A stretch of 64,000 bases of DNA from an uncultured virus (IMG/VR IMGVR_UViG_3300033571_018919). Taxonomy: Duplodnaviria; Heunggongvirae; Uroviricota; Caudoviricetes. The stretch is taken from IMG/VR virus record IMGVR_UViG_3300033571_018919, positions 1-64,000 of that record; one strand, given 5' to 3'. This document shows, piece by piece, positions 3,589 through 6,572 of the stretch. Below the pieces are notes generated by a model. It was given only the letters and a program-made list of their open reading frames with translations. It was not told where the DNA came from and did no database searches. The first letter of the stretch is position 1, and each line of letters opens with the position of its first letter. The position numbers and the translations under genes are program-made.

Positions 3589-4384
3589 AGGTTTCATTGG
3601 TCAAAATATGCTTAAGTATCTCCAATCTAATACAGATTGGTCTATTGATACATATGACATTAAAGATGAATTCCAAGGGGTCATGTCTTATGACTGGGTA
3701 ATTCATTTAGGTGCAGTAACAAGTACAACCGAAAAAAACTTAGATAAAGTTTTAACTCAAAATTATGAGTTTTCTAAAAATCTGTTTGACGAATGCAAAA
3801 CGTTTGGGGTGAATTTACAATATGCTAGTTCTGCTAGTGTATATGGACAAAATTTAGAATTTACAGAAGAAAGTCCATTAGATCCAATAACTCCGTACGC
3901 ATGGTCAAAATATCTTTTCGAGCGACACGCCTCAAATAATATGGGAGGTAATATAGTTCAAGGGTTTAGGTATTTTAACGTTTATGGAAAGCACGAAGAT
4001 CATAAAGAAGGTCAGTCCAGTCCTATTCATCAGTTTACAAAACAAGCTAAAACAAACGGAAAAATAAAGATTTTTGATGATAGTCATAAAATGTTTAGAG
4101 ATTTTATTTGTGTTGATGATGTTTGTAGAGTACAGATTGAGTTTATTAAAAGCGTTAAAGAATCAGGCATTTGGAATTTAGGCACAGGTAGGCCGACTAG
4201 TTTTGAGAAAGTTGCCGAATATATCAAAGATATATATGGCGGAAAGTTAAAGTATGCTATGATGCCAGATCAGTTACAGAGAAGTTATCAATATTATACA
4301 TGCAGTGATAATACCAAATTAGAAAATACCATTGGCAAGCAGAGTTGGATAAAAATTAAAGATTTTTTAAAACAAGACAAGTAA
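3563..4384 (+). CDS. NAD-dependent epimerase, ADP-L-glycero-D-manno-heptose-6-epimerase (RfaD/HldD)-like
   Basis: TGHKGFIG Rossmann motif, YASSASVYG, YAWSK (YxxxK), GFRYFNVYG, RDFI.VDDV, NLGTG and C-terminal YQYYT; these resemble HldD-like extended SDRs. Confidence 0.8.
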   Translation: MKILLTGHKGFIGQNMLKYLQSNTDWSIDTYDIKDEFQGVMSYDWVIHLGAVTSTTEKNLDKVLTQNYEFSKNLFDECKTFGVNLQYASSASVYGQNLEFTEESPLDPITPYAWSKYLFERHASNNMGGNIVQGFRYFNVYGKHEDHKEGQSSPIHQFTKQAKTNGKIKIFDDSHKMFRDFICVDDVCRVQIEFIKSVKESGIWNLGTGRPTSFEKVAEYIKDIYGGKLKYAMMPDQLQRSYQYYTCSDNTKLENTIGKQSWIKIKDFLKQDK

Positions 4385-4386
4385 AG

Positions 4387-4393
4387 ATAAGTA
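4387..4393 (+). promoter_or_regulatory. Possible variant late promoter (ATAAGTA)
   Basis: One mismatch to the NTAAATA motif seen upstream of structural genes, with the same 5-nt gap to the ATG (4399) as at 11121/11133. Confidence 0.4.
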
Positions 4394-4398
4394 GATTC

Positions 4399-4959
4399 AT
4401 GCCAAGTCCACAAAAAGCAAAAGGTTCAAGTTTTGAAAGAGAAATTGCGAAATTTCTTTCAGAATTATACGGAGAAAGTTTTATACGTGCCCCAGGGTCC
4501 GGAGCGTATGTGGGCGGTACAAATCAAAGCAGGAAGCAATTTTTACACGAAGGTCAAATTCGCAGTTTTAAGGGAGACATTGTTCCAGGACAAAGTTTTT
4601 CTAAATTTAATGCGGAGTGTAAGAGTTATAAAGACTTCCCATTTCACTTATTACTTACGGGTGAGAACAAACAATTTGACCAATGGATAGCACAAATGAT
4701 AGAAGTATCAGACCAAGATGATTTTAATATTCTTTTTATGAAGTTTAATCGCATTGGTAAGTTCGTAGCAGTACAACCAAAATTTACATGGGTGTTAGAT
4801 AATTATACTTTTTATTCAAGTAAAACGGTTGGTGATTGGATACTTACAGAATTTGATAGCTTTTTCAAAAACAACAAAGACTTAGTTAAAAATTACTCAG
4901 GCTCAATAGACACAACGTCACAATCTCAAAATTTAACGAATTTACAATTAGCCGACTGA
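4399..4959 (+). CDS. PD-(D/E)xK nuclease, Holliday junction resolvase (Hjc-like)
   Basis: KAKGSSFEREIAKFL, RAPGSGA, GDI and NAECKSYK motifs typical of phage Hjc-like resolvases. Confidence 0.75.
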   Translation: MPSPQKAKGSSFEREIAKFLSELYGESFIRAPGSGAYVGGTNQSRKQFLHEGQIRSFKGDIVPGQSFSKFNAECKSYKDFPFHLLLTGENKQFDQWIAQMIEVSDQDDFNILFMKFNRIGKFVAVQPKFTWVLDNYTFYSSKTVGDWILTEFDSFFKNNKDLVKNYSGSIDTTSQSQNLTNLQLAD

Positions 4960-5292
4960 GTTGTCAGTCCTCCTTGAGGAAGTACAGGTAGTGCTGTGCC
5001 GACGGATCTGGAGTATACATGTCAGTAATGACATGGAATGTCGAGAGGGCAATCTTTGTTAGGGAACCCTCAATGAGTTTGTATCTTACTCTGTTTTGCG
5101 GATACAAAACATGCGTTGCCGAAGAGCTAAATGAAAAAATAAGTTTAGTAGCTTCACTACAGTCCCATTATACTTACAGGGCAACCGACGGCGTATAGCA
5201 ACTAAAAGTGTTAGCTATTCGGGGAATAAACAGCAAGTGGATGACGGGCATGGCAAGTTTCCAATTGGTAGTGCTGAATAGCACTACCATGG
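4954..5292 (+). ncRNA. Candidate structured non-coding RNA of unknown class (boundaries approximate)
   Basis: Intergenic and more GC-rich than its flanks. Stems: GACTGA/TCAGTC, GTACAG/CTGTGC, CATGTCA-GTAA-TGACATG (GNRA loop), GAGGG/CCCTC, TTTGTATC/GATACAAA, GTTGCC/GGCAAC, ATAGC/GCTAT and TGGTAGTGCT-GAAT-AGCACTACCA. The G-U pairs and GNRA loop favour the + strand. Confidence 0.6.
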
Positions 5293-5353
5293 CTTCAAAG
5301 CGGCAATATATAAGCCCTAAAGAAAAGTTTTCGAAAGTTATAACAGTCAATAA

Positions 5354-5416
5354 AATTCCGAACAATGCGAACGTAGTGAGCATGTGAAGGAATTAGATGA
5401 ACGAAGTTCATCTTTT
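5354..5416 (+). other. Two hairpins with C-GNA-G triloops; the second, followed by a T-run, may also act as a terminator
   Basis: AATTCC/GGAATT encloses ATGC-GA-AC-GTA-GT-GA-GCAT (5365-5383). AGATGAAC-GAA-GTTCATCT (5395-5413) is followed by TTT and an AT-rich tract. Confidence 0.55.
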
Positions 5417-5471
5417 AATAATTCTAATAATATTAATGGTAATCCTAAGTTATGATAATGAATATCTACGG

Positions 5472-5702
5472 TTAGAAGAAAGGTAACTTTGTGTTCTTTG
5501 TTGTTTCTAAGTTTTCTTCTATTAAATTGCCGATGGCTTGTCTTTCCTTAAATGACATATTGAGTATGTCTATATAAGATGCCCCACCCCTCATATACCA
5601 TGCCATTTTTAATGCATTGGCTTTAATGGCTTCACAATCTTTTTCCATATCGTCTATTAACTTCTGAACCTCATCGGGGGCTAGGGCCAGAAGTCTTAGA
5701 CG
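5472..5702 (-). CDS. Unannotated 76-codon frame, a probable -1 frameshift extension of the gp26-like protein (tail/baseplate assembly chaperone-like)
   Basis: Reads RLRLLALAPDEVQKLIDDMEKDCEAIKANALKMAWYMRGGASYIDILNMSFKERQAIGNLIEENLETTKNTKLPFF*. It is open in the -1 frame from the slippery site. The internal ATG at 5648 has no nearby Shine-Dalgarno. Confidence 0.75.
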   Translation of the reverse strand, partial: RLRLLALAPDEVQKLIDDMEKDCEAIKANALKMAWYMRGGASYIDILNMSFKERQAIGNLIEENLETTKNTKLPFF

Positions 5703-5708
5703 AAAAAA
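5660..5708 (-). promoter_or_regulatory. Candidate -1 programmed ribosomal frameshift signal
   Basis: In-frame T TTT TTC heptamer (5708-5702), 7-nt spacer, then the stem ACTTCTG/CAGAAGT (5694-5688/5666-5660) with further pairs. Confidence 0.65.
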
Positions 5709-6520
5709 TCAGATATGTTTAGATCAAATGGTTGTTCGTAATTGTGGCTACAACTTGGACAAGTAAATGCTAAAGGTTTAGCTTCAGTTGTTTTTCTTAG
5801 ATTAATACTTTGGTCTTTGATGTTATCATATTCTTTCTTTGGTATATTTTCTAAGAACTCTTTTATGTACTCTTTTTCAATGACTACGCTTTCAGGAGTT
5901 TTGACATATTCTACAATTTCTAATATCAATTCTGTTGCAATCTCATTCATTTCTTTTACCAACTCAGACATTTTATTTTCTTTGTCAGCACCTTCTTCCA
6001 TTTTTGATATTATTCCATATGCTCTTTGTAAGTCAAATTGTTTTTGACTGTTCTCATTTACTTTTGTATATGTCAATGGTTTAAATTTTATTTGCACATC
6101 GTTGTACACTGGATAAAGTTTGTTATAATCCCCTGGACTGAATTCATTAAGCATTCCAGTTAAATTTACATCGTATTTGGCGTCGTGATTGCAATTTGGG
6201 CATACAGTTAAAATTTCCATAGTAGACCCATTAGTTGCAATTTTAATTGCTAGAAGAATAGGATCTAAATCAATTTGTAGTAATTGCCATGGGTCTTTGA
6301 TATTTGGTGCGCAACTGTGAATAATTTCAACTACTGCTTGGCCATTAAAAAGTGCATCTGGTGTGCGTGTGGTAATTTCGTCTAATGCAGTCATGGGAAA
6401 AATTGGTATCTCCCCTGACTCCGGTAAATCAATGGCATTTTCTTTATATCCTATGCCTTTGCTAGGTAATTTCAAATATAATGCAGGTTTACGAAAATAA
6501 CTTTTTAGTGGGTTAGACAT
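5696..6520 (-). CDS. T4 gp26-like baseplate hub / tail assembly protein
   Basis: NPLKSYFRKP..LKLPSKG N-terminus, MTALDE, two CPxC motifs, C-terminal DFFV. Start revised to the ATG at 6520, which has a GGAG Shine-Dalgarno. Confidence 0.75.
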   Translation of the reverse strand: MSNPLKSYFRKPALYLKLPSKGIGYKENAIDLPESGEIPIFPMTALDEITTRTPDALFNGQAVVEIIHSCAPNIKDPWQLLQIDLDPILLAIKIATNGSTMEILTVCPNCNHDAKYDVNLTGMLNEFSPGDYNKLYPVYNDVQIKFKPLTYTKVNENSQKQFDLQRAYGIISKMEEGADKENKMSELVKEMNEIATELILEIVEYVKTPESVVIEKEYIKEFLENIPKKEYDNIKDQSINLRKTTEAKPLAFTCPSCSHNYEQPFDLNISDFFV

Positions 6521-6552
6521 TTTTTCTCCAAAATTTGACAGTAATTTTTCAA

Positions 6553-6572
6553 CTAAATACAAGATATTTATA
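6553..6572. promoter_or_regulatory. Face-to-face pair of gp55-type late promoters
   Basis: CTAAATA on + (6553-6559) towards 6584 and TATAAATA on - (6572-6565) towards 6520. Confidence 0.65.

What the first reader, a model, noticed from the sequence alone, without database searches (positions are those of the whole stretch)
4954..5292. Unannotated highly structured element (~340 nt) behind the resolvase: candidate new phage ncRNA
Seen: the only long non-coding stretch in a tightly packed window, more GC-rich than other intergenic gaps and filled with nested stems. These are 4954-4969, 4982-4999, CGAC/GTCG (5000-5003/5040-5043) enclosing a 7-bp GNRA-capped hairpin (5018-5035), 5045-5071, 5078-5108, GTTGCC/GGCAAC (5115-5120/5180-5185) enclosing 5121-5155, 5195-5218, and a perfect 10-bp hairpin at 5266-5289. 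It does not match tRNA, tmRNA, RNase P or intron cores that I recognise. Inference: a multi-domain structured RNA co-transcribed with the resolvase gene. It could be a ribozyme, a scaffold, or a primer RNA for replication.
Basis: partly seen in the sequence, partly recalled or inferred. Interest (0 to 1): 0.85.

Follow-up and report, generated by a model that had tools for sequence, protein, structure and literature searches.

The report
Folded RNA, probable jumbo-phage replication starter
The gene-free gap in this uncultured giant phage holds a real, intricately folded 350-base RNA followed by DNA hairpins built like a plasmid replication signal, so it may be the unmapped place where these phages start copying their DNA.

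Summary
The element is real, and it is larger than reported. An RNA at 4954-5306 (+) has two covarying pseudoknots (44 homologues, 93.6% of cells paired, 71 of 98 pairs with two-sided changes). It has no Rfam match. Only the 5' domain of a sister subclass is catalogued (Polynucleobacter-1, function unknown), and the scan met this family before on other genomes.

Three features point to a function:
(1) The RNA ends in two short direct repeats around a hairpin. They stay identical to each other while the sequence changes (259 of 262 sites), and no complementary site exists in the RNA.
(2) An AT-rich tract and two DNA-type hairpins (5356-5413) follow. The first has the same build as the hairpin behind the ColE1 origin.
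(3) The whole unit also sits in small integrative islands of Rhodobacteraceae and Burkholderiales.

Best reading (about 50%): a ColE1-like, RNA-primed replication origin, also carried by satellite-like islands. Against it: no transcript was shown, the promoter is late-type, there is no replication skew, the phages have no RNase H, and the PAS hexamer is missing at the matching place.

The parts
4386..4393 (+). GATAAGTA, a variant of the GATAAATA/TAAATA motif found before virion genes; probable phage-sigma ('late') promoter for the resolvase and the RNA
   Evidence: motif before portal and other virion genes; promoter function inferred from likeness to the T4 late promoter (recalled)
4399..4959 (+). 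Holliday-junction-resolvase-like PD-(D/E)XK gene; its stop codon overlaps the first RNA hairpin
   Evidence: PHROG 244; Pfam PDDEXK_15
4954..5306 (+). Structured RNA, class A, about 353 nt
   Evidence: alignment A2; covariation; loop and G-U statistics
4954..5035 (+). 5' domain: P1 (4954-4969), P2 (4970-5013, with a tandem G-A pair and hairpin 4982-4999), P3 (5018-5035, GNRA loop, variable length); shared with class B
   Evidence: nhmmer of class A against class B loci, best E 1.5e-7
5039..5233 (+). Core: P4 (5039-43/5186-90) closing P5 (5045-71), P6 (5073-5112) and P7 (5115-20/5180-85, holding P8 5121-55); P9 (5192-5221); pseudoknots PK1 (5091-96/5228-33) and PK2 (5163-66/5222-25)
   Evidence: an equivalent PK1 covaries in classes B and C
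5248..5256 (+). Direct repeat copy 1 (proposed internal guide for the DNA template)
   Evidence: 5248 and 5300 carry the same base in 43 of 44 sequences; wholesale co-changes in variants
5266..5289 (+). Hairpin between the two repeat copies
   Evidence: outer 8 pairs 99% paired, nearly invariant
5300..5306 (+). Direct repeat copy 2, at the conserved 3' end of the RNA
5307..5355 (+). AT-rich tract (76% A+T), sequence not conserved; candidate unwinding element
   Evidence: alignment ends
5356..5392 (+). Nested single-strand-DNA-type hairpin with two tandem G-A units and a GTA triloop; same build as ColE1 1320-1352
5395..5413 (+). 8-bp hairpin AG-N5-C-GAA-G-N5-CT with a DNA-type triloop
5472..6562 (-). 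Convergent baseplate-hub (gp26-like) gene 5696-6562 and short downstream ORF 5472-5648; flanking context, not part of the unit
   Evidence: convergent in 52 of 52 class A loci with enough flank

Best explanation
The gap is an RNA-primed replication origin that works like ColE1's. Steps: (1) RNA polymerase with the phage sigma factor transcribes the 350-nt RNA [inferred]. (2) The RNA folds into a doubly pseudoknotted core [fold shown by covariation]. (3) Its 3' hairpin brings repeat copy 1 next to the DNA at copy 2; copy 1 pairs with the template strand there and nucleates a lasting RNA-DNA hybrid over the AT-rich tract [the identity constraint is shown, the hybrid is inferred]. (4) The RNA 3' end, trimmed by host RNase H or used as it is, primes the leading strand [inferred]. 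(5) The displaced + strand folds into the GNA-loop hairpins, which load a helicase/primase, either the host PriA primosome or phage proteins [hairpins shown, reader unknown]. Small integrative islands of aquatic Proteobacteria carry the same unit behind the same promoter motif, probably so that a helper jumbo phage switches on their replication [inferred].
For: Layout: RNA, then an AT tract, then a nested tandem-GA/GNA hairpin on the same strand in 141 of 182 distinct loci, against 2 of 1399 coding control windows. The second hairpin is in 146 of 182 against 17 of 1399. The same detector finds one site in all of ColE1 (1331, RNA II strand, about 135 nt past the origin). With a 4-bp flank it finds 1 site in G000, 1 in G002 and 2 in G003. 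Loops switch from RNA type to DNA type at the RNA's end: class A has 63 GNRA and 6 GNA triloops inside, 5 and 65 downstream. Repeats: three free positions are identical in 78-79 of 79 class B and 29-30 of 30 class C sequences found by the core motif. 7-mers are identical at 259 of 262 distinct sites (shuffle mean 51.5, max 71), against 2 of 38 pattern hits without the RNA. New 7-mers in Burkholderiales islands are again identical in 4 of 4. No complementary third site was found in the RNA, the linker or downstream. Spacing is 48-61 nt, not helically phased. ColE1 has the same logic: a G run in RNA II pairs with a C run of the template (PMC4412123, passages), and G6 runs lie at 927 and about 1175 in the fetched record. 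The unit persists in islands with integrase, small tyrosine recombinase, ParB-like and toxin-antitoxin genes; no Rep, primase or replicative helicase was recognised in the L802-type island. One copy per complete genome, 5.4-6.6 kb from the point where gene directions diverge.
Against: No transcript was shown: the one RNA run gave a contig at 4708-4953 and nothing over the element. The promoter motif is the one used by virion genes, which fits a late function; PA5oct is reported to express replication and virion genes together (PMC7318152, section 6), which softens this. Fourfold-site skew follows gene direction and shows no leading/lagging asymmetry. Co-direction at the site (0.73-0.75) is matched by 12% of positions, and the genomes are syntenic, so this is one observation. 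No RNase H and no PriA domain in 5 phage records. The recalled PAS hexamer GAAGCGG does not follow the hairpin. Mismatches between copies do not clearly favour the predicted wobble: G/A in L062, L064, L117 and L471, but A/G in L761 and L706, A/T in L592, C/T in L709, L724 and L805. Class A copy 1 has a 2-nt insertion, and its repeat signal is weaker (common substring 4.9 against 4.35 shuffled). The RNA was not found on any plasmid. One island (L806) encodes a protein with a HUH-like motif (seen by eye; no family hit), which could be its own initiator. A doubly pseudoknotted, highly invariant core is more than ColE1 RNA II is known (recalled) to need.
Confidence: 0.5

Rival explanations
1. A cis-acting site for late DNA metabolism other than initiation. 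A late transcript opens an R-loop that marks where packaging starts or where recombination-dependent forks are launched or resolved; islands copy it to be packaged by the helper phage.
For: Late-type promoter in the phages and in the islands. Position at the end of the sigma-SbcD-SbcC-resolvase cluster. It explains the same repeat and hairpin anatomy. Satellites need packaging signals (established for PICI and PLE, recalled).
Against: The hairpin has the build of the site behind the ColE1 origin. The resolvase is often separated from the RNA. No terminase gene was recognised in the islands.
Confidence: 0.17
2. A trans-acting ribozyme or ribonucleoprotein scaffold. The repeats are two binding sites for one protein, and the downstream hairpins are separate terminators or processing signals between convergent operons.
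For: Ribozyme-like size, two pseudoknots and many invariant bases. An A-run before the first hairpin in classes B and C would read as a U-run for the convergent gp26 transcript. Earlier scan notes read the hairpins as terminators or as a regulatory cassette (e1-6082046, e1-5913457).
Against: No terminator was called in 4300-5800. Loops are GNA triloops and GNYA, and the tandem G-A units would be pyrimidine mismatches on the convergent strand. The hairpins stay with the RNA in islands that have no gp26 gene. A protein would be expected to tolerate mixed copies, yet single-base variants are matched at 259 of 262 sites.
Confidence: 0.22
3. The whole element works as single-stranded DNA (a large single-strand origin) and is never needed as RNA.
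For: No transcript was shown. G-T pairs and GNNA loops also form in DNA (established).
Against: Loop types split sharply at the RNA's end. Island copies keep a promoter motif just upstream.
Confidence: 0.05
4. An anti-phage or regulatory RNA that bacteria took over: the island copy is transcribed on infection and acts as a decoy against the phage's own copy.
For: One island lies next to a Zorya type I system. Island copies have the phage promoter motif.
Against: It does not say what the phage copy does. Islands keep the cis hairpins and matched repeats, which a decoy RNA would not need.
Confidence: 0.06

Closest known systems
ColE1/pMB1 origin: RNA II primer, persistent hybrid, downstream n'-pas (ssiA)
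   Same: Order and strand of the parts: structured RNA, a repeat shared between the RNA and origin-proximal DNA, then a nested tandem-GA/GNA hairpin on the displaced strand (mechanism from PMC4412123 and PMC3167613, passages).
   Different: No sequence match to any plasmid. The RNA is about 350 nt with two pseudoknots. The repeat is a variable 6-7-mer about 50 nt apart, not a G run about 250 nt apart. A second hairpin is present, GAAGCGG is absent after the first, no antisense RNA I or Rop was identified, and the promoter is of phage type.
Polynucleobacter-1 RNA motif (Rfam RF01718; Weinberg et al. 2010, PMC2864571)
   Same: It is the 5' domain of class C at the same genomic site (120.5 bits) and of Burkholderiales island copies that end in the same repeat-and-hairpin module.
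   Different: The window's class A RNA does not match the model. The model covers 141 nt only and lacks the core, the repeats and the DNA hairpins. I saw no function given for it in the table row and supplement passages read.
Phage T4 origins oriF and oriG
   Same: Promoter plus downstream unwinding element forming an R-loop in a T4-like phage (PMC4412123, passages).
   Different: T4 uses middle promoters, and no conserved RNA fold is described for it in the passages read. No gp59 match was found here, but that search had no positive control.
Large orphan RNAs (GOLLD, ROOL, raiA, OLE) and large ribozymes (group I, RNase P)
   Same: Size, multi-pseudoknot fold, phage association (recalled).
   Different: No Rfam match at the gathering score or at E up to 10. 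Here the RNA is tied to downstream DNA hairpins.
Phage satellites (P4-like, PICI, PLE)
   Same: The island copies are small, integrase-bearing elements without recognised capsid genes, carry a phage promoter motif and sometimes lie beside defence genes.
   Different: No primase, Rep or terminase was recognised; no helper dependence was tested.

Membership tests
ColE1-type RNA-primed origin | Structured pre-primer RNA upstream of the start site | tested here: met
   Covariation and RNA-type loops; transcription itself not shown
ColE1-type RNA-primed origin | Sequence homology to RNA II / RNA I | tested here: not met
   No plasmid match; no Rfam hit of any family, RNAI included
ColE1-type RNA-primed origin | RNA segment able to pair with the template strand near the 3' end | tested here: met
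   Identity-covarying repeats and no RNA complement; the pairing itself is inferred
ColE1-type RNA-primed origin | Persistent hybrid, RNase H cleavage and Pol I extension | not testable with these tools
   Needs biochemistry; no phage RNase H in 5 records
ColE1-type RNA-primed origin | Strand asymmetry marking an origin | tested here: inconclusive
   Skew follows gene direction; site in the top 12% of positions for co-direction
n'-pas / ssiA primosome assembly site | Single-strand hairpin on the displaced strand just past the primer | tested here: met
   Same nested build as ColE1 1320-1352. That this ColE1 stretch is the pas is recalled; searches gave no coordinates
n'-pas / ssiA primosome assembly site | GAAGCGG consensus beside the hairpin (recalled) | tested here: not met
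   Present in ColE1 and phiX174, absent after the phage hairpin
n'-pas / ssiA primosome assembly site | Strand-specific PriA binding and ATPase stimulation | not testable with these tools
   Needs biochemistry
Polynucleobacter-1 (RF01718) | Score above the gathering threshold | tested here: not met
   Window: no hit. Class C locus L058: 120.5 bits
Group I / group II intron, RNase P, tmRNA, tRNA | Rfam or ARAGORN match | tested here: not met
Retron / DRT / DGR non-coding RNA | Linked reverse transcriptase | tested here: not met
   0 of 5 phage records, two of them rated complete
Intrinsic terminator (downstream hairpins) | GC-rich stem followed by a U tract | tested here: not met
   0 called in 4300-5800; flanks vary across loci
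Phage satellite (island copies) | Helper-dependent excision, replication and packaging | not testable with these tools
   Only gene content and promoter motif seen

The most novel reading that the evidence does not exclude
A widespread group of T4-like jumbo phages starts DNA replication from a ribozyme-sized, doubly pseudoknotted RNA. The RNA carries a short, freely variable internal guide matched to its own DNA template and forms a site-specific R-loop in front of primosome-type hairpins. An undescribed family of integrative islands in aquatic Proteobacteria carries this origin under the phage's sigma promoter. This would give a function to the orphan Polynucleobacter-1 RNA family.
Probability: 0.4. 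Interest if true: 0.92.

Novelty: new variant of a known kind. Interest (0 to 1): 0.78.

Why it matters
Large orphan RNAs rarely come with a testable mechanism. Here the matched repeats predict a clean compensatory-mutation test, and cultured bacteria (Nereida ignava, Polynucleobacter) carry island copies. If true, it places the replication origin of an abundant group of aquatic jumbo phages, explains an RNA motif catalogued in 2010 without a function, extends RNA-primed origins from small plasmids to 360-kb phages, and points to a new satellite family. If the origin idea fails, an RNA whose end must match a DNA site 50 bases on is still unusual.

Tried and rejected
Rfam: window at the gathering score and at E up to 10, no credible hit. 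ARAGORN: none. blastn against cultured phages and plasmids: no relevant hit for class A, class B (phages only) or class E, nor for the hairpins alone. Class A core pattern: 0 hits in GTDB genomes. RNA run X1: a 246-nt identical contig ends at 4953, one base before P1, and nothing covers the element; contigs cannot show ends or levels, so this is no evidence either way. GC/AT skew: explained by gene direction. A third complementary site for the repeats: none. Reverse transcriptase, RNase H, PriA: none in 5 phage records; DnaB-type helicase in 3 of 5; gp59 search uninformative. Cultured relatives PA5oct and Phosso have a 1-1.5-kb gap at the same site, but profile searches found no homology to classes A-C, the strict hairpin detector did not fire there, and none of the four ncRNAs published for PA5oct maps to the gap. 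The class A repeat count was mis-anchored by my pattern and is not used; replace it. The wobble-asymmetry argument looked good at first and is now mixed. Class C DNA search: 0 of 401 genomes in the family of G410. ESM Atlas gave no named family for two island proteins. No covariance model was built; homology between classes rests on nhmmer, shared motifs and the shared 3' module.

Full report
Context. The window is part of an uncultured T4-like jumbo phage: late sigma factor, SbcD, SbcC, nucleotidase, epimerase and resolvase on +, a baseplate-hub gene on -, then portal and head genes. The closest cultured resolvases are those of SCTP-2, PA5oct-like phages and Phosso, at 40-45% identity. Complete relatives are about 360 kb. 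The host is unknown.

Observation. It is the only long gap. Rfam and ARAGORN give nothing.

Homologues. Of 80 resolvase loci, 32 carry the same RNA (class A), 39 carry related forms (classes B, C, D), 1 is cut off and 8 have none within the flank held. Five pattern scans of viral and metagenome contigs each stopped at about 120 hits, so the family is larger.

Structure. On 44 class A sequences (70% mean identity; from 48 representatives I left out 4 longer ones) a 98-pair structure is 93.6% paired, with two-sided changes in 71 pairs; slid controls are 33-43% paired. I derived the structure from the same alignment, so the per-pair counts matter more than the shuffle test. Two pseudoknots covary: 5091-96/5228-33 (100%) and 5163-66/5222-25 (93%). 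The strand from 5039 to 5043 pairs with 5186-90, not with 5000-03. G-U outnumbers A-C 100 to 13, and GNRA loops dominate, which gives + strand RNA. Classes B (79 sequences) and C (30) show an equivalent pseudoknot. Class A shares its 5' domain with B. B and C share the 3' half. L706 is a class A RNA with B-like repeats. The 5' domain of C is Rfam Polynucleobacter-1. The family is therefore mosaic, and only one domain of one class is catalogued.

Matched repeats. The strongest non-pairing signal is identity between two short segments either side of the last hairpin. Class A: 5248 equals 5300 in 43 of 44, and divergent members change both copies together (six or more different 6-mers among 40 variant sites; mean common substring 4.9 against 4.35 shuffled). 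Classes B and C: three positions are identical in 78-79 of 79 and 29-30 of 30 sequences. In the larger set, 259 of 262 distinct sites have identical 7-mers; the pattern fixed four of the seven letters in both copies, so three were free, and 8 rows without a detected core were dropped first. The same pattern in GTDB gave 52 hits: 13 of the 14 that carry the RNA have identical copies, against 2 of the other 38. Counts are sequences, not events, but at least 13 different 7-mers occur matched. Spacing is 48-61 nt in 112 of 114. Each locus's own repeat pairs no better than other variants with its 5' region, linker or downstream DNA (165 sites). The simplest shared partner is the DNA template strand at copy 2. 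This is inference. Mismatch types are mixed and do not prove the direction.

DNA hairpins. After an AT-rich tract come a nested hairpin with tandem G-A units and an 8-bp hairpin, both with GNA or GNNA loops. They occur within 190 nt of the RNA end in 141 and 146 of 182 loci, against 2 and 17 of 1399 control windows. Loop types switch from GNRA to GNA triloop at the RNA end; that such loops are DNA-stable is established knowledge, recalled. The detector, which I built after seeing both sequences, finds a single site in ColE1, on the RNA II strand about 135 nt past the origin. That this is the ColE1 pas is recalled: PMC3167613 and PMC5778457 (passages) describe the site but gave no coordinates. 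The recalled GAAGCGG consensus does not follow the phage hairpin, so I claim likeness of build, not membership.

Island copies. The repeat pattern also found a class E in Rhodobacteraceae contigs: 5 of 5 source genomes confirmed, and 3 of 401 in a family sample. They lie in low-GC islands with an integrase, a 188-aa tyrosine recombinase, a ParB-like gene and toxin-antitoxin pairs. GATAAATA stands just before the RNA in the nine aligned copies other than L753, L761 and the cut L392, that is 8 of 11. The same motif precedes virion genes in the window. RF01718 found 3 of 151 genomes over the cut-off, and a fourth weak one, in the order of G410. All four have TAAATA upstream, matched repeats and the tandem-GA hairpin. 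One region has DUF6641 upstream, the small recombinase downstream and a Zorya system nearby. So promoter, RNA, repeats and hairpins travel as one unit, without the resolvase or gp26.

Mechanism. This anatomy is that of ColE1: transcript, RNA segment that pairs with the template near the start, displaced strand exposing a helicase/primase site (PMC4412123, passages). I put an RNA-primed origin at 0.5. The fold, the repeat constraint, the hairpins and the linkage are shown by comparison; transcription, hybrid, priming and the reading proteins are inferred. Supporting but weak: one copy per complete genome, 5.4-6.6 kb from the divergence of gene directions, and an RNase HI gene beside the equivalent gap in Phosso. 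Against: no transcript, late-type promoter, no replication skew, no phage RNase H or PriA, no plasmid copies, and no detectable homology of the PA5oct and Phosso gaps. The rivals are a packaging or recombination site (0.17), a trans-acting RNA with unrelated terminators (0.22), pure ssDNA (0.05) and a defence decoy (0.06).

Novelty. Ten literature searches showed no description of the full RNA, its repeats or an origin role; I saw most results only as listings. 'Polynucleobacter-1' occurs in one paper of the library (table row and supplement passages read). Term searches in two 2026 preprints found no mention; their supplements are closed. PMC10690425 lists viral candidates of up to 151 nt (passages); six motif terms were absent from 6 supplement files, but files 1, 2 and 4 could not be searched, so fragments may be listed there. 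PMC7318152: passages and section 6 read. Earlier notes of this scan found the family on other genomes and left its function open; the listings I saw do not propose the matched-repeat or origin reading for it.

Verdict. A real RNA of a partly catalogued family, not a member of RF01718 or of the ColE1 family by sequence, which probably works like a ColE1 primer origin. New variant of a known kind; interest 0.78.

Noticed in passing
L800, L802, L803, L804 (Rhodobacteraceae islands): A low-GC island of roughly 10-14 kb recurs at 91-99% identity in three genomes, twice in G243. It has an integrase, a small tyrosine recombinase, a ParB-like gene, DUF6626, several unknown ORFs and two GATAAATA motifs on opposite strands. 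Candidate satellite of jumbo phages.
   Followed up: partly
L806:6619-7260 (-): Island ORF behind a GATAAATA motif with a HUH-like motif seen by eye; no Pfam or PDB hit. Possible rolling-circle initiator or relaxase.
   Followed up: partly
L815:10262-17947: Zorya type I genes (ZorA-D) next to a Polynucleobacter-1-bearing element.
   Followed up: partly
L081:2480-3990 and L083:2990-4000 (PA5oct, Phosso): Gaps of 1-1.5 kb with the resolvase inverted. PA5oct has a consensus sigma-70 promoter and GATAAATA pointing into the gap. Tandem-GA-like hairpins are visible by eye at the far end, on both strands in Phosso, which has an RNase HI gene next. Best cultured test cases.
   Followed up: partly
window 5472-6562 (-): gp26-like gene followed by a short ORF without its own clear start; earlier scan notes report a -1 frameshift here in relatives.
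   Followed up: no
classes B and C, between repeat copy 2 and the + strand hairpin (e.g. L042, L048, L059): An extra tandem-GA/GNA motif on the opposite strand in 13 of 115 loci, which could serve the other fork direction.
   Followed up: partly
L756, L757, L758, L764, L768, L770, L778: Class B/C elements inside bacterial MAG contigs, probably phage contigs binned with the genomes; not evidence of host.
   Followed up: no
window 5055 and 5172: These two positions covary (G-C 35, T-A 7 of 44) although 5055 is already paired; possible base triple or a lineage effect.
   Followed up: no
G000 62064-75641: A 4,525-aa ORF begins at the end of the window, after several virion ORFs of 1,300-2,600 aa.
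   Followed up: no
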